A stretch of 42,021 nt of DNA from the IMG/VR virus record IMGVR_UViG_2939147180_000007, one strand, 5' to 3'. The DNA comes from a virus. Taxonomy: Duplodnaviria; Heunggongvirae; Uroviricota; Caudoviricetes. Under the pieces are notes generated by a model that was given only the letters and a program-made list of their open reading frames with translations, had not been told where the DNA came from and searched no databases. Position numbers and translations under genes: made by a program. Of the stretch, positions 22,567-40,603 are shown one piece after another (position 1 is the stretch's first letter; the number at the start of each line of letters is the position of its first letter).

Positions 22567-23010
22567 ATGTACTCCAATGAAGAAGCCACCGACATAGCCT
22601 CCTCCATTCATAGTGAAACTATTTTCATCTACCCAGTAATGAATTCTTTGTAGAGTTGTGATCAATACAACTCACTAATGGAGAGGCTTGTCCAACACGT
22701 TGGACAAGTTTCCTGTTTGATTTACTGGACACTATAGAAGGACAGAATGCCTTCATCACTCGAATAACATCAATTAAGGAGGTTCAACATGTTTCATTCC
22801 ACAAATCATCAGGCTGTAATTATGGCTGCATCAGCTTGTGCCACAGACCTTTTCCGCTTCACTTTGAGCCTGATTCATTTCTACCTGACCGGCTCGCCTC
22901 TATCTTTTTAATCCCCGCTTTATCCAAATTGCATTGCCAGAATGCCGACAACAGACTGACATTCAAATCCTGACTACCTCCAATAGGCTGAGCATCCACT
23001 GGATTTGCCC

Positions 23011-23916
23011 CTATATTTCCAGACATCTGTTATCACTTAACCCATTACAAGCCCGCTGCCGCAGATATTCCCGTGGCGAGCGATAACCCAGCGCACTATG
23101 CGGATGCCATTCGTTATAATGCTCGAACGCCTCTGCAAGGTTCTTTGCTGCCGTTAACCCGTCTGGTTTGGGCATGATACTGATGTAGTCACGCTTTATC
23201 GTTTTCACGAAGCTCTCTGCTATTCCGTTACTCTCCGGACTCCGCACCGCCGTGTTCTTCGGTTCAAGTCCCAACATCCGGGCGAACTGGCGTGTTTCAT
23301 TAGCCCGGTAGCATGAACCATTATCCGTCAGCCACTCCACTGGAGACGACGGAAGATCGTTGCCGAAGCGGCGTTCCACCGCTCCCAGCATGACGTCCTG
23401 TACTGTTTCACTGTTGAAGCCGCCGGTAGTGACCGCCCAGTGCAGTGCCTCACGATCACAGCAGTCCAGCGCGAACGTGACACGCAGTCTCTCTCCGTTA
23501 TCACAGCAGAACTCGAACCCGTCAGAGCACCATCGCTGATTGCTTTCTTTCACGGCCACTCTGCCTGTATGTGCCCGTTTCGATGGCGGTACAGCAGGTT
23601 TTCGCTCAAGCAACAGCGCATTCTGGCGCATGATCCGGTAAACACGTTTGGCATTGATCGCAGGCATACCATCAAGTTCTGCCTGTCTGCGAAGCAGCGC
23701 CCATACCCGACGATAACCATACGTGGGCAGCTCTCCGATAACATGGTGTATACGGAGAAGCACATCCGTATCATCAGTGTGACGACTGCGGCGGCCATCC
23801 ATCCAGTCATCGGTTCGTCTGAGAATGACGTGCAACTGCGCACGCGACACCCGGAGACAACGGCTGACTAAGCTTACTCCCCATCCCCGGGCAATAAGGG
23901 CGCGTGCGCTATCCAC
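23011..23916 (-). CDS. insD: IS2 transposase OrfB
   Basis: 301-aa [26 protein letters not shown]...; DDE integrase fold. Confidence 0.93.
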
Positions 23917-24239
23917 TTTTTTGCCCGTCCATATTCAACGGCTTCTTTGAGGAGTTCATTTTCCATCGTTTTCTTGCCGAGCAGGCGCTGGAGTTCTTTA
24001 ATCTGCTTCATGGCGGCAGCAAGTTCAGAGGCAGGAACAACCTGTTCTCCGGCGGCGACAGCAGTAAGACTTCCTTCCTGGTATTGCTTACGCCAGAGAA
24101 ATAACTGGCTGGCTGCTACACCATGTTGCCGGGCAACGAGGGAGACCGTCATCCCCGGTTCAAAGCTCTGCTGAACAATTGCGATCTTTTCCTGTGTGGT
24201 ACGCCGTCTGCGTTTCTCCGGCCCTAAGACATCAATCAT
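23874..24239 (-). CDS. insC: IS2 transposase OrfA
   Basis: track ORF 23874..24284; start at [23 protein letters not shown] (121 aa); overlaps insD as expected for frameshift fusion. Confidence 0.9.
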
Positions 24240-24427
24240 CTGTTCTCCAATGACTAGTCTAAAAACTAGTATTAAGACTATCACTTATTTAAGTGATATT
24301 GGTTGTCTGGAGATTCAGGGGGCCAGTCTATCCACCTATATAGTTTTAATTTTCATCAATCCATTTAACTATCGTTTAATTGTTGTCACATAGGATTCTG
24401 CCGTTTTTAACAATGCAGGATAATAAG

Positions 24428-27494: not shown

Positions 27495-27691
27495 TCAATA
27501 TAAACAGCCCCTCCGGAGAGGGGCTGGAGAGTGGCGCTATGTGCCATTGCATGGTGCCGGGTGCCTCCCGGTGAATTCAGTACCAGCACCTGAATCCGCG
27601 ATTATCCCATATACCTACTCGCTGATTACCCCTCCGCACAGGGGGATTCACCATGCGAAATTTTTTAACAAACTTCCCGCCGGCCAGACAA
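27495..27691 (-). ncRNA. candidate structured RNA module, copy 1 (promoter-like element, conserved helices, terminator)
   Basis: minus strand: TTGTCT-N17-TTAAAAAAT, then TCGCATGGTGAATCCCCCT...CTGAATTCACCGGGAGGCACCCGGCACCATGC, then palindromic hairpin AGCCCCTC-CGGA-GAGGGGCT and a U-rich tract. Confidence 0.35.
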
Positions 27692-27960
27692 TAATCGCCA
27701 GCCTGAATTATGAGCAACGTGGCATTTTACGGGAAAACTGTTTTCTGCAGTAAAAAGGCCCGCCGGAGCGAGCCTGGAAGGATAGCGGTCATGTGATGCC
27801 GGTTTCCCGGTAACTCAGCATCGGTATCTGAGTCAACGTTTTCTCTACTGGGTCATTTCCGATACGTTCCGCCTTCCGGCAGACTTTCATCACGTCAGAA
27901 AATATAGCACCCTGAGTAACAGGACAGTACTCAGAATTCAGGAAACTGTGACACATCCTG

Positions 27961-28160
27961 CACAGAAAAGCCCCTCCGGAGAGGGGCTGAAGTATAGCCT
28001 AATTTCTGTCTGTCGCATGGTGCCAGGGGCCTCCCGGTAAATTCAGCCTGTCTACTGAATTTGCATGTTCTCTGGATCATACACTTTGCCAGATGCCCCG
28101 CCGCTGAGGGGGATTCACCATGCGATGTAATTTTTAACAAATTCTCCGGCAGCCAGACAA
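27961..28160 (-). ncRNA. candidate structured RNA module, copy 2 (diverged duplicate of copy 1)
   Basis: same conserved blocks and hairpin-terminator as copy 1, different loop sequences, one G-C to G-U stem change. Confidence 0.35.
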
Positions 28161-28503: not shown

Positions 28504-28579
28504 TGGTGGCCCTTGCTGGATTTGAACCAGCGACCTGGCGATTATGAGTCGCTCGCTCTCACCACTGAGCTAAAGGGCC
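28504..28579 (-). tRNA. tRNA with anticodon CAU (ileX-like, probably tRNA-Ile2; Met not excluded)
   Basis: 76 nt GGCCCTTTAGCTCAGTGGTGAGAGCGAGCGACTCATAATCGCCAGGTCGCTGGTTCAAATCCAGCAAGGGCCACCA; full cloverleaf; near-identical to E. coli ileX from memory. Confidence 0.85.
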
Positions 28580-31260: not shown

Positions 31261-31333
31261 CGGTTGTCTCTGCTGGCGCAGCAGGTGCCAGTTGTTCAGG
31301 CTGGCGTGCGAATTGTAAACCAGAATGCCAGGA

Positions 31334-31358
31334 AAAAACAAAACCCGCCGAAGCGGGT
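31334..31358 (-). terminator. intrinsic terminator of hok mRNA
   Basis: hairpin ACCCGCTTCGGCGGGT followed by a U-run on the minus strand downstream of hok stop. Confidence 0.6.
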
Positions 31359-31427
31359 TACGTGCGGGTGCGTTGAGGATGCCTGACACATCAGAGGTGG
31401 CGAGGGATTTCTCCCCCGCCAGGTCTC

Positions 31428-31583
31428 TTACTCCTCAGGTTCGTAAGCTGTGAAGACAGCGACCTCCGTCTGGCCGGTTCGGATTCGTACCTCGCAGAGG
31501 TCTTTCCTCGTTACCAGTGCCGTCACAATGACGGTTAAACAGATGACGATCAGGGCGATTAACATCGCCTTTTGCTGCTTCAT
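31428..31583 (-). CDS. hok: Hok/Gef family type I toxin
   Basis: 51 aa MKQQKAMLIALIVICLTVIVTALVTRKDLCEVRIRTGQTEVAVFTAYEPEE, near-identical to HokD/RelF from memory; in-frame upstream extension to 31640 occupies the mok position. Confidence 0.88.
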   Translation of the reverse strand: MKQQKAMLIALIVICLTVIVTALVTRKDLCEVRIRTGQTEVAVFTAYEPEE

Positions 31584-31842
31584 AGCCTGCTTCTCCTTGC
31601 CTTTCGGCACGTAAGAGGCTAACCTAGATTTGCCGTTCATAGATTGAGCCTCAGATTAATGTTAAGCGTCTTGCAGGACGCGTAATGTTAACTGGGGCTT
31701 TTCTCTATCTGCCTTTTGGTGTTCATGCCTGAGACAGATAGCCTCAAGCACCCGCAGTCATTCTACTTAACTAAGATTTCCCCGCAAACCGTTTTTGTCC
31801 GGCACAGTAAATATCCAACTAAACCAATGGCGTTCGCTGTAT

Positions 31843-32022
31843 TTACCGCCAGTATTCAATGCACATGACCGCCATGAACACCCCTAAAAAAAGGGCATTT
31901 ATATATCCAAATATTAATATCAAAACATCAACTTTTTCCATATACCTTGCTGTGAAGATGATGGGCATACATGATACGAACAACCAGAACGCAACAAACA
32001 AAAACTGCAATGCGTTTTTCAT
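31843..32022 (-). CDS. small hydrophobic two-TM membrane protein in AT-rich islet
   Basis: 59 aa MKNALQFLFVAFWLFVSCMPIIFTARYMEKVDVLILIFGYINALFLGVFMAVMCIEYWR; strong SD AGGAGG 4-5 nt upstream; track ORF 31843..32061. Confidence 0.5.
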   Translation of the reverse strand: MKNALQFLFVAFWLFVSCMPIIFTARYMEKVDVLILIFGYINALFLGVFMAVMCIEYWR

Positions 32023-32193
32023 TATTCCTCCTACAATCAATGTGCAATTACATTTAAACACACCTCAATTTGGCCGAACATATAAATATCTAAACCAGAA
32101 AAAATCACTTACATAGCGTTACAAACTCTTTAGTCTAAATATTCATCGTAAAACATTCCCCATACTTATCAGCCCGTTCTGCGCCAGGTAGCT

Positions 32194-32509
32194 CATTGCC
32201 TTATCTGGGAATCTGTAATCAGGTTTCCGGATGCTGGTGGATTTTCGCGTTTTAGTTGTTCATAAAAGTGCACAGCTTTAACCAGTTCTTCTGATGTAAC
32301 CGGGACTGGCGGGGCAGTGAATAAGGCCTGAATTTCATAGTTCGGCCTGTCGTTACAATCCTCTTTTTTCGGTACATATTTCCAGTCACCAGACCACTAC
32401 TTCTCCTGAAAGTCCGTAACGCCTTTTTTTTCACGTAGCGATATCGCCATGCCACTGTTTTTGCTTGCCCCGCCGTTTCATGCCCTTCCTGATAATTAAC
32501 CTCGCTCAT
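32194..32509 (-). pseudogene. frameshift-interrupted ORF at poly-A runs (possible pseudogene)
   Basis: ATG at 32509 overlaps upstream stop (ATGA); downstream protein-like frame (...PNYEIQALFTAPPVPVTSEELVKAVHFYEQLKRENPP...) is shifted by -1 after an A6 run and has no start codon. Confidence 0.3.
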
Positions 32510-35395: not shown

Positions 35396-35646
35396 GAATC
35401 AACTCCCATCAGCTTTTTCGTAGTAGTTTTATTCCTGCCAATAGTTAAAATTGCATCGGCAGAAAATAATCCGTTTGATGCAAGAGCGATTTTTTCAGCG
35501 TAATTTGTTTCGCCGGTATATTCTGTGCGAGGCAATTTTCCGTTATCCATCCATTTATAGATTGCTCTTTGGCTGACACCACAAACGTCGGCCACAACAG
35601 CAACGCGAACAGTTTTGATTACATCTTCAAGTGTTTTCTGGTTCAT
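35392..35646 (-). CDS. Cro-like HTH regulator (YdaS/DicC-like)
   Basis: track ORF 35392..35718; start at MNQKTLEDVIK with SD GAGGG; HTH ADVCGVSQRAIYKWM; divergent from repressor. Confidence 0.7.
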   Translation of the reverse strand: MNQKTLEDVIKTVRVAVVADVCGVSQRAIYKWMDNGKLPRTEYTGETNYAEKIALASNGLFSADAILTIGRNKTTTKKLMGVDS

Positions 35647-35725
35647 ATCACCCTCACAATGTGAACTTTGAGTACATGCTATAACAGAACTGACAGTACA
35701 TTCAAGAGCGAATATCATTGAACTT
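35647..35725. promoter_or_regulatory. divergent promoter/operator region between Cro-like and repressor genes
   Basis: 79-bp gap between divergent starts containing repeated AGTACAT motifs. Confidence 0.5.
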
Positions 35726-36145
35726 ATGGTTCATGAAGATAAAGCGCGTAAAGAGTTCGCCAGTAGGCTTGCGCTAGCCTGTGAAAACGCTGGTTATGAA
35801 CAACATGGAAGGCAGGCAGAAATTGCCCGTCGAATGAAATTAACACCAAAAGCGGTTAGCAAATGGTTTAATGGCGAAACAATTCCTCGCCGGGAGAAAT
35901 TAAGGGAATTAGCAACACTAATAGGAACAACACCAACCTATCTTTTGGGAGAGGATACAGAAGAAAGTGGACAGGTACGTTTCTATCAGGAGTTAAATCC
36001 AAGACAAAAAATCATCATTGACCTTCTGGACGAGCTCCCTGACAGTGAGACAGATGAACTTTTAAAAACTCTTGAAGAGAAAAAACAGAAGTACAATGCA
36101 ATTTACGAAGAGTTAGCACGAAAGAAAAAACAAAAAGCCTCTTAA
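35726..36145 (+). CDS. prophage repressor, DicA/RacR-type HTH-XRE without peptidase domain
   Basis: 139-aa ORF; HTH QAEIARRMKLTPKAVSKWFNGE; no S24-like C-terminal domain. Confidence 0.75.
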   Translation: MVHEDKARKEFASRLALACENAGYEQHGRQAEIARRMKLTPKAVSKWFNGETIPRREKLRELATLIGTTPTYLLGEDTEESGQVRFYQELNPRQKIIIDLLDELPDSETDELLKTLEEKKQKYNAIYEELARKKKQKAS

Positions 36146-36219
36146 ACCAGCATAAATCCGGTAGCGCCTTCCTCCGGGTTTGTGCTTCACTTTATCCCAT
36201 CTCATTTTTTTACACACAA

Positions 36220-36270
36220 AATGTACTAAAAGTACTTTACAACAATGAACGAAAAGTACATTATATGCCT
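36220..36270. promoter_or_regulatory. second operator-like cluster (candidate left operator/promoter of dicB-like operon)
   Basis: AAAATGTACTAAAAGTACTTTACAACAATGAACGAAAAGTACATTAT repeats the AGTACAT/ATGTACT motif seen between Cro-like and repressor genes. Confidence 0.35.
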
Positions 36271-36581
36271 GCCACCCACCCCGCCCCACAGAATGCAGGG
36301 CAATACTTCGAGTTACCAGGCAGTGGTCAGGGGTTAAGTAGCCAGCCCGAGGCGTAAGAACATGACGGCAGGGTTCAACTTTAATAACTATGCAGCAGGT
36401 TTTTGTTCCGCTACCCCGGCGTTAAGGGGAAACAGAGGATTTCTCAGTGGGCGAAGTCAAACATCAGAATGGAAGGCGTCCAGGGATCAGCAAAGAAACA
36501 GCGATGGCGCTTTATATTGATATCAGCGCCATTGCCGGACAGGTAAGAATTATCAGAGCGGTAACTAAGCGGTATGCGCCT

Positions 36582-37434: not shown

Positions 37435-37492
37435 TTTCTGGTGACATTTGGCGGTATCAGTTTTACTCCGTGACTGCTCTGCCGCCCTTTTT
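37435..37492 (+). ncRNA. dicF: DicF small RNA (ftsZ-targeting antisense sRNA)
   Basis: TTTCTGGTGACATTTGGCGGTATCAGTTTTACTCCGTGACTGCTCTGCCGCCCTTTTT matches DicF from memory; about 170 nt upstream of dicB. Confidence 0.7.
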
Positions 37493-38131: not shown

Positions 38132-40603
38132 ATGAGTAAAGTTTTTATTTGCGCCGCCATTCCGGGCGAACAGGCAATAAAGGAAGAAGGTGCCGTCGCT
38201 GTAGCCACTGCCATTGAAGCCGGTGATGAACGTCGCGCCCGCGCAAAATTTCACTGGCAATTCCTGGAACATTATCCGGCTGCTCAGGACTGCGCTTATA
38301 AATTTATTGTCTGCGAGGATAAACCTGGCATACCCCGCCCTGCCCTCGATTCATGGGATGCTGAATATATGCAGGAAAACCGCTGGGATGAGGAGTCTGC
38401 TTCTTTTGTCCCGGTTGAGACTGAATCCGATCCGATGAACGTCACTTTTGACAAGCTGGCCCCTGAAGTACAGAACGCTGTCATGGTTAAGTTCGACACA
38501 TGTGAAAACATCACCGTTGATATGGTTATTAGCGCACAGGAATTGTTGCAGGAAGACATGGCAACATTCGACGGACATATCGTTGAAGCGTTGATGAAAA
38601 TGCCAGAAGTTAACGCCATGTATCCGGAGCTTAAGTTGCACGCCATTGGGTGGGTTAAGCATAAATGTATTCCTGGTGCTAAATGGCCCGAAATTCAGGC
38701 AGAGATGCGCATCTGGAAAAAACGTCGCGAAGGTGAACGCAAGGAAACCGGAAAATACACGTCTGTTGTTGATCTCGCCCGCGCCAGAGCCAATCAACAG
38801 TACACTGAAAATTCAACAGGAAAAATCAGCCCGGTCATTGCTGCCATCCATCGCGAATACAAGCAGACATGGAAAACACTGGATGACGAACTGGCCTACG
38901 CTCTCTGGCCTGGTGATGTGGATGCCGGAAACATTGATGGCAGCATCCATCGCTGGGCAAAAAATGAAGTTATCGACAACGACCGCGAAGACTGGAAGCG
39001 TATCTCGGCATCAATGCGCAAACAGCCTGATGCCCTTCGCTACGACCGCCAGACTATTTTTGGCCTTGTCCGTGAGCGTCCGATCGACATTCACAAAGAT
39101 CCCATAGCACTGAACAAATATATCTGCGAATACCTGACGACAAAGGGCGTGTTTGAGAATGAAGAAACAGACCTGGGCACTGTTGATGTTCTCCAGTCAT
39201 CAGAAACACAAACTGATGCAGTGGAAACTGAGGTATCTGATATCCCAAAAAATGAAACCGCGCCGGAAGCTGAACCATCTGTAGAGCGTGAGGGGCCGTT
39301 CTATTTCCTCTTCGCAGATAAGGACGGAGAAAAATACGGTCGCGCAAACAAACTTTCTGGTCTGGATAAGGCACTGGCTGCTGGCGCCACTGAAATCACA
39401 AAAGAAGAATATTTTGCCCGAAAAAATGGCACATACACGGGCTTACCGCAAAATGTAGATACCGCTGAAGATTCAGAACAACCAGAGCCGGTAAAAGTTA
39501 CCGCTGACGAAGTAAACAAAATTATGCAGGCAGCCAATATCAGCCAGCCTGACGCCGATAAGTTGCTTGCTGCCTCTCGCGGAGAATTTGTTGCAGGGAT
39601 TAGCGACCCGAATGATCCGAAATGGGTTAAGGGGATCCAGACCCGCGATTCTGTAAACCAGAACCAGCATGAATCGGAACGGAACTACCAAAAAGCGGAA
39701 CAAAACAGCCCAAATGCGTTACAAAACGAGCCAGAAACGAAACAGCCTGAACCAGTGGCGCAACAGGAAGTGGAAAAAGTCTGCACCGCCTGCGGTCAGA
39801 CCGGCGGCGGCAACTGCCCTGATTGTGGCGCGGTGATGGGCGACGCAACATACCAGGAAACATTCGATGAAGAGTATCAGGTTGAAGTTCAGGAAGATGA
39901 TCCGGAGGAAATGGAAGGCGCTGAACATCCACACAAGGAGAATACTGGCGGCAATCAGCATCACGATAGCGATAATGAAACTGGCGAGACGGCAGATCAC
40001 TCAATTAAGGTGAACGGTCATCAAGAAATCACATCCACCAGCAGGACGTGTGACCATCTAATGATCGACCTTGAAACCATGGGAAAAAATCCTGATGCCC
40101 CAATCATCTCAATAGGTGCAATATTTTTCGATCCGCAAACCGGAGATATGGGACCGGAATTTAGTAAGACTATCGATCTGGAAACTGCTGGCGGAGTCAT
40201 TGATCGAGACACCATTAAATGGTGGCTTAAGCAATCACGCGAAGCGCAATCTGCCATTATGACCGATGAAATCCCGTTAGATGATGCACTGTTACAATTG
40301 CGGGAATTTATCGACGAAAACTCCGGTGAATTTTTTGTTCAGGTCTGGGGAAATGGAGCCAACTTCGACAACACGATTTTGCGCCGTTCATACGAACGGC
40401 AGGGGATCCCCTGCCCGTGGCGTTACTACAACGATCGCGATGTACGCACAATCGTTGAGCTGGGGAAAGCCATAGACTTCGATGCCAGAACGGCTATTCC
40501 ATTCGAAGGTGAGCGCCATAATGCACTTGATGACGCCCGTTACCAGGCAAAATACGTTTCAGTTATCTGGCAAAAACTGATCCCGAGTCAGGCTGATTTT
40601 TAA
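38132..40603 (+). CDS. YdfE-like protein with Cys4 zinc finger and C-terminal DnaQ-like (DEDDh) 3'-5' exonuclease domain
   Basis: 823-aa ORF; CTACGQTGGGNCPDCG; exonuclease motifs MIDLETMG, WGNGANFDNTIL, HNALDDARYQAKY; position between dicB/ydfD and xis. Confidence 0.8.
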   Translation: MSKVFICAAIPGEQAIKEEGAVAVATAIEAGDERRARAKFHWQFLEHYPAAQDCAYKFIVCEDKPGIPRPALDSWDAEYMQENRWDEESASFVPVETESDPMNVTFDKLAPEVQNAVMVKFDTCENITVDMVISAQELLQEDMATFDGHIVEALMKMPEVNAMYPELKLHAIGWVKHKCIPGAKWPEIQAEMRIWKKRREGERKETGKYTSVVDLARARANQQYTENSTGKISPVIAAIHREYKQTWKTLDDELAYALWPGDVDAGNIDGSIHRWAKNEVIDNDREDWKRISASMRKQPDALRYDRQTIFGLVRERPIDIHKDPIALNKYICEYLTTKGVFENEETDLGTVDVLQSSETQTDAVETEVSDIPKNETAPEAEPSVEREGPFYFLFADKDGEKYGRANKLSGLDKALAAGATEITKEEYFARKNGTYTGLPQNVDTAEDSEQPEPVKVTADEVNKIMQAANISQPDADKLLAASRGEFVAGISDPNDPKWVKGIQTRDSVNQNQHESERNYQKAEQNSPNALQNEPETKQPEPVAQQEVEKVCTACGQTGGGNCPDCGAVMGDATYQETFDEEYQVEVQEDDPEEMEGAEHPHKENTGGNQHHDSDNETGETADHSIKVNGHQEITSTSRTCDHLMIDLETMGKNPDAPIISIGAIFFDPQTGDMGPEFSKTIDLETAGGVIDRDTIKWWLKQSREAQSAIMTDEIPLDDALLQLREFIDENSGEFFVQVWGNGANFDNTILRRSYERQGIPCPWRYYNDRDVRTIVELGKAIDFDARTAIPFEGERHNALDDARYQAKYVSVIWQKLIPSQADF

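What the first reader, a model, noticed from the sequence alone, without database searches (positions are those of the whole stretch)
31330..31700. hok/mok-type type I toxin locus inside the prophage, without adjacent relBE
A 51-aa Hok/Gef toxin, near-identical to HokD/RelF by recall, has an in-frame upstream extension to 31640 in the mok position and an intrinsic terminator. An antisense Sok-like RNA would be expected on the plus strand across the mok start; a candidate promoter (TTGCCT-N17-TAACCT near 31596-31630) and hairpin GCGTCTTGCAGGACGC are present but weak. Unlike K-12 Qin, no relBE follows; an AT-rich islet with a different small membrane protein lies there instead.
Basis: partly seen in the sequence, partly recalled or inferred. 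Interest (0 to 1): 0.45.

Follow-up and report, generated by a model that had tools for sequence, protein, structure and literature searches.

The report
Intact prophage hok/mok/sok toxin-antitoxin module
This is a complete copy of a well-known small "host-killing" toxin gene with its antisense-RNA antidote, of the kind already annotated and tested in Shiga-toxin phages, so it is real but ordinary.

Summary
It is not new.

**What is there.** The minus strand 31788..31332 holds a complete hok/mok/sok type I toxin-antitoxin module:
- its own promoter;
- a 421-nt hok mRNA (31753..31333) with all four fold-back elements (tac, ucb, dcb, fbi);
- a 70-codon mok frame, in frame with hok;
- a 51-aa Hok identical to K-12 HokD;
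- an intrinsic terminator.

**The antitoxin.** The plus strand carries the sok gene. Its promoter is TTGCCT-N17-TAACCT (31597-31625). The predicted RNA is 71 nt (31632-31702), with a 14-nt free 5' tail, a long hairpin and UUUU.

**Closest relatives.**
- The locus is 91% identical to hokW/mokW/sokW of phage 933W/Sp5, which was annotated in the 933W GenBank record and tested experimentally in 2021. The sok promoter stretch is identical.
- Most of the locus is found in 3825 of 5426 complete E. coli genomes.
- K-12's relBE-hokD is the truncated, minority form, found in 1173 genomes. No relBE exists anywhere in this window.

- The "hairpin" is the tip of Sok's long stem, a 16-nt insert specific to this clade.

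**The only possibly new point.** A 21-nt block (31627-31647), which is Sok's recognition tail and target, is far more variable than its flanks across otherwise conserved copies.

The parts
31760..31788 (-). hok promoter. The -35 is TTGCGG (31787-31782), the spacer is 16 nt, and the -10 is TAGAAT (31765-31760). Transcription start is 7 nt downstream at 31753.
   Evidence: Read. It aligns with the -10 regions of R1 hok, hokC and hokB. TAGAAT and the preceding AGTTAAG are conserved in 64 unique upstream segments, while the -35 is only about 50-80% conserved. The promoter is inferred, not mapped.
31333..31753 (-). Full-length hok mRNA, 421 nt.
   Evidence: The 5' end is set by Rfam RF01794 model position 1; the same model starts within 1 nt of the published +1 of the R1-type locus. 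The 3' end is set by the terminator. The minimum-energy fold is -173.3 kcal/mol, z=-7.4 against shuffles.
31742..31753 (-). tac (translational activator) element, GGGUGCUUGAGG, at the mRNA 5' end.
   Evidence: It pairs with fbi in the full-length fold and with ucb in the 3'-truncated fold. The pairs are kept in at least 95 of 97 unique loci.
31694..31700 (-). ucb (upstream complementary box, the anti-SD of mok), AAGCCCC.
   Evidence: It pairs with the mok SD in the full-length fold and with tac in the truncated fold. It is homologous to A70-C72 of R1.
31666..31681 (.). 16-nt hairpin tip, the core of a gap of about 18 nt in the alignment with R1, hokC and hokB. It extends both the hok-leader stem-loop and the Sok hairpin.
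   Evidence: It appears as an insertion against the Rfam model and against the three other loci. 83 of 97 unique loci match the insert pattern. In 4 of them the loop is flipped.
31649..31652 (-). mok Shine-Dalgarno sequence, GAGG.
   Evidence: It is homologous to GAGG 104-107 of R1. It is sequestered by ucb in the full-length fold and paired with dcb in the truncated fold.
31428..31640 (-). mok reading frame, 70 codons, in frame with hok and sharing its stop codon.
   Evidence: ORF. It is 89% identical to MokW of 933W and matches PHROG 251 'MokW-like host killing' at 7.7e-33.
31627..31647 (.). Hypervariable block. It covers the spacer after the mok SD plus mok codons 1-5, and so the target of Sok's free 5' tail.
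   Evidence: Pairwise diversity is 0.32 here, against 0.04 at hok third codon positions. Distance between alleles is 0.36 in the block and 0.06 in the flanks, with 20 distinct block sequences.
31615..31620 (-). dcb (downstream complementary box), AGCCUC. It overlaps the sok -10 on the other strand.
   Evidence: It pairs with the mok SD in the truncated fold. It is invariant in 96-97 of 97 loci, though it partly lies inside the search pattern. PMC9841398 notes the same overlap in R1.
31428..31583 (-). hok toxin gene, 51 aa plus stop. Its SD, AGGAG, is at 31597-31593.
   Evidence: Pfam HOK_GEF at 3e-23. PGAP names identical DNA hokD. The protein is identical to K-12 HokD and 42% identical to R1 Hok.
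31366..31378 (-). fbi (fold-back inhibition) element, CCUCAACGCACCC.
   Evidence: It pairs with nt 1-12 of the mRNA in the unconstrained fold. The pairs are kept in at least 95 of 97 loci.
31332..31359 (-). Intrinsic terminator of the hok mRNA.
   Evidence: A 7-bp GC-rich stem followed by a T run. Conservation of the module ends here.
31597..31625 (+). sok promoter. The -35 is TTGCCT, the spacer is 17 nt, and the -10 is TAACCT.
   Evidence: It occupies the same position as R1's TTGCGC-N17-TATCCT. The stretch is identical to sokW. The sokW -10 was mutated with primer YO-421, with loss of antitoxin function.
31632..31702 (+). Predicted Sok antisense RNA, 71 nt. It has a 14-nt single-stranded 5' tail, a long hairpin and UUUU.
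   Evidence: The ends are transferred from the annotated sokW of 933W, which starts 9 nt inside mokW and is 71 nt long, and from sokC of K-12. The fold is -30 kcal/mol, z=-5.6. No transcript evidence is available here.

Best explanation
**What it is.** This is an intact hok/mok/sok type I toxin-antitoxin module of the hokD/hokW clade. It is carried as a self-contained cassette in the nin region of a lambdoid prophage.

**Mechanism.** The steps are inferred from the R1 paradigm and from hokW-sokW. The in-silico steps were shown here.
1. A modest constitutive promoter makes a stable 421-nt hok mRNA.
2. The 5' tac pairs with the 3' fbi, and ucb masks the mok ribosome-binding site. The mRNA is then neither translated nor bound by Sok.
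3. Slow 3' trimming removes fbi. The RNA refolds so that tac pairs with ucb, and the mok SD pairs with dcb. This presents the mok start region in a hairpin.
4. The short-lived 71-nt Sok RNA is made from the opposite strand. It binds that hairpin through its 14-nt free 5' tail. This blocks mok translation, and hok translation coupled to it, and the duplex is degraded.
5. When sok transcription stops, Sok decays and the stored truncated mRNA is translated. Hok then inserts into the inner membrane and depolarises the cell. Sok transcription could stop on prophage induction, prophage loss, or host shut-off by another phage.

**Most likely role here.** As for hokW in Sp5, the toxin is probably released on induction and assists lysis and phage release. 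Prophage stabilisation and abortive infection are alternative or additional roles.
For: **Identity.**
- Pfam HOK_GEF matches at 3e-23.
- Rfam RF01794 matches the full-length model at 112 bits.
- PHROG 251 'MokW-like' matches.
- PGAP names identical DNA hokD.

**Completeness.**
- The leader aligns element by element with R1, hokC and hokB.
- The unconstrained fold of the full-length mRNA pairs nt 1-12 with nt 376-388, z=-7.4.
- The truncated RNA (nt 1-372) switches to tac-ucb and mok SD-dcb pairing.
- These pairs are kept in at least 95 of 97 unique loci. Compensatory changes occur in the 5' hairpin, for example pair 15-47 with A-U in 75 loci and G-C in 14.
- None of the positions where the window carries a rare base falls in an element listed under parts.

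**Sok.**
- The predicted RNA folds as tail plus hairpin plus UUUU, z=-5.6.
- The promoter stretch is identical to that of sokW.

**Experiments on the 91%-identical hokW-sokW (PMC8621323).**
- HokW is toxic.
- SokW expressed from its own promoter neutralises it, and -10 mutations abolish this.
- SokW disappears and HokW appears after mitomycin C, in a RecA-dependent way.
- Deleting the locus halves phage release.

**Other support.**
- The HokD coding sequence was toxic in a published assay.
- A 100% identical locus occurs in the phage record vB_EcoS-640R1.
Against: - No transcript, processing or toxicity data exist for this exact locus. The Sok ends and the hok +1 are transferred by homology.
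- Both promoters miss the consensus scan: neither was reported, and by hand sok matches 4 of 6 and 3 of 6, and the hok -35 matches 3 of 6.
- Intact chromosomal hokA, hokB and hokC loci reportedly failed to mediate post-segregational killing or rifampicin activation (Pedersen and Gerdes 1999, as cited).
- The nearly identical ECO11 prophage carries frameshifted genes, such as the prohead protease. The lysis-helper role may therefore be moot if this prophage is defective.
- The effect of hokW on phage release was only about two-fold.
Confidence: 0.88

Rival explanations
1. The locus is a silent or decayed remnant. It looks complete but is not expressed or cannot kill, as is said of the K-12 chromosomal hok loci.
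For: - K-12 hokD is a truncated remnant.
- Intact chromosomal hokA, hokB and hokC loci were reported unable to mediate post-segregational killing.
- Both promoters deviate from consensus.
- Tyr47 must be edited to Cys for the second conserved cysteine, and editing of hokD mRNA is only about 6%.
Against: - Every regulatory element is present, and the alternative pairings form in unconstrained folds.
- The whole 420-nt unit is more than 90% conserved across 94 unique prophage copies, and conservation stops sharply at its edges. This argues for purifying selection.
- The closest relative, hokW-sokW, is functional.
- The HokD peptide is toxic when expressed.
Confidence: 0.08
2. The mechanism is the same, but the role is addiction or defence. 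The module would stabilise the prophage by killing cells that lose it, or abort infection by other phages that shut off host transcription. It would not help the prophage's own lysis.
For: - R1 hok/sok mediates post-segregational killing and excludes T4.
- The 933W GenBank record annotates the module as 'prophage maintenance'.
- PHROGs files it as a moron.
- The same cassette occurs at different places in different phages, in a P1-like phage and on plasmids. This fits a selfish or defence cargo gene.
Against: - No PADLOC defence model matches.
- A published survey found no enrichment of hok near defence systems.
- The only direct test in a prophage showed help with phage release.
- The roles are not mutually exclusive.
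Confidence: 0.3
3. hok is expressed mainly by read-through from the phage early-right operon, as K-12 hokD is read from the relBE promoter. On this view the antisense RNA would be irrelevant.
For: - hok has the same orientation as the upstream replication and nin genes and the downstream DUF968, rusA and Q genes.
- No terminator was found between the upstream ORFs and hok.
Against: - The cassette keeps its own conserved -10 and exact 5' end.
- The tac element would be expected to need a position at or near the 5' end for the refolding switch.
- The sok promoter is intact and identical to a functional one.
- Read-through could instead add to the canonical mechanism, by interfering with convergent sok transcription on induction.
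Confidence: 0.05

Closest known systems
hokW / mokW / sokW of Stx2 phage 933W (Sakai prophage Sp5)
   Same: - 91.4% nucleotide identity over 444 nt.
- The same elements are present, including the 16-nt hairpin insert.
- The sequence is identical from the sok -10 through the -35 to the hok start.
- Mok is 89% identical.
- A 71-nt sokW that starts 9 nt inside mokW is annotated.
[quoted passage not shown]
   Different: - 4 of the last 7 Hok residues differ (TAYEPEE against VDYESEK).
- The recognition block differs at 8 of 21 nt.
- The sequence after fbi, including the terminator, is unrelated.
- The position in the phage genome differs. It lies near the right end in 933W, and between the replication genes and the DUF968/rusA/Q genes here.
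hokD (relF) of the E. coli K-12 Qin prophage, last gene of relBEF
   Same: - The 51-aa toxin is identical.
- Nucleotide identity is 98% from the hok SD to the terminator, including fbi.
- The downstream DUF968 (ydfU) gene is shared.
   Different: - K-12 homology stops at window position 31597, 14 nt upstream of the hok ATG.
- The hok promoter, tac, ucb, mok and sok are all missing, and relE abuts instead.
- The K-12 junction occurs in 1173 of 5426 genomes. Most of the full locus occurs in 3825.
- No relB, relE, rem, ydfV or flxA is present in the window.
hok/mok/sok (parB) of plasmid R1
   Same: - The architecture and order of elements are the same: tac, ucb, mok SD, a 19-codon in-frame mok leader, dcb, hok SD and fbi.
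- The sok promoter is at the same position.
- The same Rfam family matches both.
   Different: - About 49% nucleotide identity and 42% Hok identity.
- R1 lacks the 16-nt hairpin insert.
- R1 is plasmid-borne, with proven post-segregational killing.
hokC (gef) / mokC / sokC of the E. coli chromosome
   Same: - Of the four loci aligned, its leader looks the most similar to the window's by eye.
- mok is in frame.
- The annotated SokC starts 9 nt inside mokC.
   Different: - About 81% identity over the coding part only.
- It has no 16-nt insert.
- In K-12 its 3' end is cut by IS186.
- It is not prophage-borne.

Membership tests
[quoted passage not shown] | A small Hok/Gef membrane toxin ORF of about 50 aa. 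| tested here: met
   Pfam PF01848 matches at 3e-23 and 81.6 bits, against a cut-off of 22. The NCBIfam Hok subfamily match falls below its cut-off.
[quoted passage not shown] | An overlapping mok reading frame with its own SD, starting upstream of hok. | tested here: met
   The 70-codon ORF at 31640..31428 is in frame with hok. GAGG lies 8 nt upstream of its ATG. It aligns with mok of R1, hokC and 933W.
[quoted passage not shown] | A conserved, structured hok mRNA leader (Rfam RF01794). | tested here: met
   112.4 bits against a gathering score of 59, with model positions 1-157 all matched. The model hits the hok-sense strand here and in the four reference loci searched.
[quoted passage not shown] | Long-range tac-fbi pairing that closes the full-length mRNA. 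| tested here: met
   The unconstrained fold pairs nt 1-12 with nt 376-388, z=-7.4. The pairs are kept in 95-97 of 97 loci. This is in silico only.
[quoted passage not shown] | Alternative tac-ucb and mok SD-dcb pairings after 3' truncation. | tested here: met
   The fold of nt 1-372 gives tac paired with nt 54-60 and the mok SD paired with nt 135-139. The pairs are conserved. The truncation point is assumed from R1.
[quoted passage not shown] | A cis-encoded antisense Sok RNA gene, with promoter and terminator, overlapping the mok start. | tested here: met
   The promoter is at the R1-homologous position and is identical to the validated sokW promoter. The predicted RNA has a tail, a hairpin and UUUU, z=-5.6.
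[quoted passage not shown] | Sok is actually transcribed and neutralises Hok, and Hok is toxic. | not testable with these tools
   This is known only for relatives. hokW-sokW was tested in PMC8621323, and the HokD peptide was toxic in the assay of the bioRxiv survey.
K-12-type relBEF operon (hokD = relF) | hokD lies directly downstream of relB-relE and lacks its own leader. | tested here: not met
   No RelB or RelE homologue is present in the window. A full leader is present where K-12 has relE.

The most novel reading that the evidence does not exclude
**The observation.** The 21-nt block at 31627-31647 is the only fast-evolving part of an otherwise strongly conserved module. It covers Sok's free 5' tail and the hairpin of the hok mRNA that the tail recognises.

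**The reading.** The discrete alleles would be orthogonal specificity classes. Each Sok would protect only against its own hok, so several hokD-type cassettes in different prophages of one cell could not cover for one another. The divergence would be driven by selection, not drift.

**Evidence.**
- The block shows 0.36 between-allele distance against 0.06 in the flanks, and 0.04 diversity at hok third codon positions.
- Each of the nine prophage alleles folded, like R1 and hokC, keeps a target hairpin of -13 to -17 kcal/mol with a different upper stem and loop.
- Predicted tail-target duplexes are -21.5 to -23.5 kcal/mol for cognate pairs and -4 to -13.5 for non-cognate pairs.

**Limits.**
- Co-residence data cannot test the idea. 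7 of 8 co-resident pairs differ, but about 90% would differ by chance.
- Relaxed constraint on this stretch is not excluded.
- I found no description of this in the papers searched.
Probability: 0.35. Interest if true: 0.45.

Novelty: already known. Interest (0 to 1): 0.15.

Why it matters
**For annotation.** Current PGAP records mark only the 51-aa hokD CDS at identical loci. They omit mok, sok and the mRNA elements. A reader who compares with K-12 could therefore wrongly take this as an orphan or inactive hokD. It is in fact the intact, ancestral form of a module whose close relative is known to act during prophage induction.

**For biology.** It adds nothing new to how hok/sok works. The one lead worth a small experiment is whether the hypervariable Sok recognition block defines non-cross-reacting classes among the several prophage copies found per E. 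coli genome. The broad search for the locus found a median of 2 and up to 10 matching places per genome, though that count includes partial and hokC matches.

Tried and rejected
- **Consensus promoter scan.** It found neither the hok nor the sok promoter, because both fall below its threshold of 4 matches out of 6. The promoters were placed by homology instead.
- **The Rfam 'sok' hit.** I first read it as the antisense RNA. It lies on the hok strand and ends at the hok AUG. A check on K-12 hokC and hokB, 933W and R1 showed that the model always matches the hok-sense leader. It therefore marks the mRNA leader and not Sok itself.
- **relBE.** I searched for RelB, RelE, Rem, YdfV and FlxA anywhere in the window and found no credible match.
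- **The AT-rich islet ORF (59 aa).** It gave no match in Pfam, PHROGs, PADLOC or NCBIfam. Its only homologues are at least 71% identical proteins from E. coli and Shigella. Its function remains unknown, and I did not pursue structure prediction.
- **Co-residence test of the specificity idea.**
  - Four informative same-genome pairs came from IMG/VR. Two multi-copy genomes from the GTDB scan added four more pairs.
  - 7 of these 8 pairs carry different alleles.
  - Allele frequencies predict about 90% different by chance, so the test is uninformative.
  - Allele-specific counts in E. coli genomes give 1.05-1.08 places per genome. Prophage immunity and attachment-site exclusivity confound these counts.
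- **Upstream context in IMG/VR loci.** The search pattern requires an intact leader, so it cannot find K-12-type copies. The K-12 junction was counted separately.
- **An open-access statement of Pedersen and Gerdes 1999 on hokD.** I found only secondary citations.

Full report
**1. The observation**

- A 51-aa ORF lies at 31583..31428. An in-frame extension reaches an ATG at 31640, giving 70 aa.
- The ORF matches Pfam HOK_GEF at E=3e-23. Its protein is identical to K-12 HokD.
- An intrinsic terminator follows, with its stem at 31359-31342 and a T run after it.
- On the plus strand, TTGCCT (31597-31602), a 17-nt spacer and TAACCT (31620-31625) are present. So is GCGTCTTGCAGGACGC at 31666-31681.
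- Rfam's 'sok' family RF01794 matches 31753..31578 over the full length of the model, at 112 bits and E=6e-25. This is far beyond chance.

**2. Extent of the locus and the Rfam strand**

The Rfam hit is on the hok strand and ends at the hok AUG. The same model hits the hok-sense strand in K-12 hokC and hokB, where sokC and sokB are annotated on the opposite strand. It also hits the hok-sense strand in 933W and in an R1-type plasmid locus, where it begins within 1 nt of the published hok mRNA +1.

The model therefore describes the hok mRNA leader, which contains the complement of Sok. A -10 TAGAAT (31765-31760) and a -35 TTGCGG (31787-31782) lie upstream. The -10 aligns with those of R1, hokC and hokB and is conserved in 64 unique upstream segments.

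**3.

Alignment with R1, hokC and hokB shows tac, ucb, the mok SD, the mok ATG, dcb and the hok SD in register.
- An unconstrained minimum-energy fold of the 421-nt RNA (31753..31333) pairs nt 1-12 (tac) with nt 376-388 (fbi). It also pairs ucb with the mok SD. The energy is -173.3 kcal/mol, z=-7.4.
- Removing the 3' end (nt 1-372) switches the fold. tac then pairs with ucb, and the mok SD pairs with dcb. This is the switch described for R1 (PMC9841398).
- Across 97 unique loci these pairs are standard in at least 95. Compensatory changes occur in the 5' hairpin.

The locus is therefore not a remnant that lacks these elements.

**4. Sok**
- The window is identical to phage 933W from the -10 through the -35 to the hok start.
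- In hokW-sokW, primer YO-421 replaces TAGGTTA with CCGGCTC. That changes TAACCT on the sok strand. The 'pro-less' construct loses antitoxin activity, and sokW supplied in trans partly restores it (PMC8621323).
- The 933W GenBank record annotates sokW as 71 nt, starting 9 nt inside mokW. K-12 sokC also starts 9 nt inside mokC.
- Transferred to the window, this gives Sok at 31632-31702. It folds as a 14-nt free tail, a long hairpin and UUUU, at -30 kcal/mol and z=-5.6.
Its 16 nt are the core of a gap of about 18 nt in the alignment with R1, hokC and hokB. 83 of 97 unique loci match the insert pattern.

**5. Context and distribution**
- The window is about 99% identical to a lambdoid prophage of E. 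coli ECO11 that lies next to potC. That prophage carries int, xis, exo, dicB, a repressor and cro, replication genes, hokD, DUF968, rusA, Q, lysis genes and head and tail genes.
- At least 80% of the 501-nt locus is found in 3825 of 5426 complete E. coli genomes. It is also found in 110 phage records. These include a 100% match in vB_EcoS-640R1, Stx phages and a P1-like phage.
- A pattern scan of IMG/VR gave 94 unique hokD/hokW-type loci. They are more than 90% conserved from about 31769 to about 31340, and conservation collapses beyond the terminator.
- K-12 hokD keeps only the part from window position 31597 downstream, with relE abutting. That junction occurs in 1173 genomes. The literature treats K-12 hokD as inactivated by rearrangement.
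- No RelB, RelE, Rem, YdfV or FlxA is encoded in the window.
- Upstream is an AT-rich islet with GC of 0.33-0.39. It holds a 59-aa ORF with two hydrophobic segments and no family assignment. The same islet precedes hok in about 16-18 of 104 IMG/VR loci.

**6. Mechanism and role**

The best-supported model is the canonical hok/sok cycle.
1. The full-length mRNA is inert.
2. The 3' end is trimmed and the RNA refolds.
3. Sok binds the mok initiation hairpin, and the duplex is degraded.
4. Hok is translated once Sok decays.

Shown here: all sequence elements, their conservation and their predicted alternative pairings. Inferred: the transcript ends, the processing, the coupling of hok to mok, and toxicity in this strain.

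For the role, the only direct data in a prophage are those for hokW-sokW. SokW vanishes and HokW accumulates after mitomycin C in a RecA-dependent way, and deleting the locus halves phage release. Prophage addiction and abortive infection remain possible. hok here is co-oriented with the early-right operon. Read-through on induction could therefore interfere with convergent sok transcription, but this is speculation.

**7. Beyond the finding**

Within the conserved module, one block (31627-31647) is hypervariable.
- It has 20 distinct sequences among 94 unique loci. The common alleles differ from one another at 6-11 of 21 positions.
- Between-allele distance is 0.36 in the block and 0.06 in the flanks. 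Diversity at hok third codon positions is 0.04.
- The block is the target of Sok's free tail.
- Each of the nine prophage alleles folded, like R1 and hokC, keeps a target hairpin of similar stability (-13 to -17 kcal/mol).
- Predicted tail-target duplexes are strong only for cognate pairs.
- The window's allele is in 1625 genomes at 1708 places.
- Co-resident copies differ in 7 of 8 pairs, but that is what chance predicts.

This fits diversification of antisense specificity, but it does not prove it.

**8. Verdict**

The locus is a member of a family that is already annotated and experimentally characterised (hokW/mokW/sokW and hokD). Novelty: already known. Interest is low, at 0.15. One modest follow-up lead remains.

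Noticed in passing
window 31627-31647: This block is hypervariable inside an otherwise more than 90% conserved hok/sok module. It has discrete alleles that keep the target hairpin but change Sok's recognition tail. The window's allele occurs in 1625 of 5426 E. coli genomes.
   Followed up: partly
window 31666-31681; loci L017 and L070: The 16-nt hairpin tip is specific to the hokD/hokW clade. In 4 of 97 unique loci its loop is the reverse complement on the same strand (GCGTCCTGCAAGACGC against GCGTCTTGCAGGACGC). This suggests inversion or template switching within the quasi-palindrome. The insert lengthens Sok's stem to about 26 bp.
   Followed up: partly
window 31578-31753; L003, L004, L005, L006: Rfam RF01794, named 'sok antitoxin', matches the hok-sense strand from the mRNA +1 to the hok AUG in every reference locus. 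It does not match the strand on which sokC, sokB and sokW are annotated. A hit therefore marks the hok leader, not the Sok gene.
   Followed up: yes
window 31843-32022 (minus strand): A 59-aa ORF with an AGGAGG ribosome-binding site and two hydrophobic segments sits in an AT-rich islet. PGAP does not annotate it in identical DNA. Its only homologues are from E. coli and Shigella, and it matches no Pfam, PHROG, PADLOC or NCBIfam family.
   Followed up: partly
window 32193-32509 (minus strand): The 85-aa ORF plus the following short ORF correspond to a gene that PGAP marks as frameshifted with an internal stop in the identical ECO11 sequence.
   Followed up: no
window 31442-31445 (minus strand): Hok codon 47 is TAC followed by G. 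This is the Tyr codon reported to be recoded to Cys by A-to-I mRNA editing in hokC, hokD and hokE (about 6% for hokD in K-12). It could add a further layer of control over toxicity.
   Followed up: no
loci L061, L023, L068, L118 against window 31332-31365: In several otherwise near-identical loci the sequence diverges completely right after fbi, so the terminator is replaced. 933W does the same. The 3' recombination boundary of the cassette therefore lies between fbi and the terminator in some lineages.
   Followed up: partly
window 27496-27684, 27960-28153, 28507-28579, 37436-37487: Rfam finds two tandem STnc100 sRNA copies and a tRNA downstream of the Q antiterminator gene. It also finds DicF in the immunity-side region.
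   Followed up: no
window 23000-24330, 35400-36277, 38136-39491: These three stretches have no counterpart in the otherwise 99% identical ECO11 prophage. The second lies in the repressor/cro region, so the two prophages may have different immunity.
   Followed up: no
L132 (Xanthomonas pisi, 431-nt contig); L135 and L136 (MAGs labelled Scatousia and Haemophilus): Exact hokD-type loci occur on very short contigs assigned to unrelated taxa. Contamination or mis-binning with E. coli prophage DNA is the likely cause.
   Followed up: no
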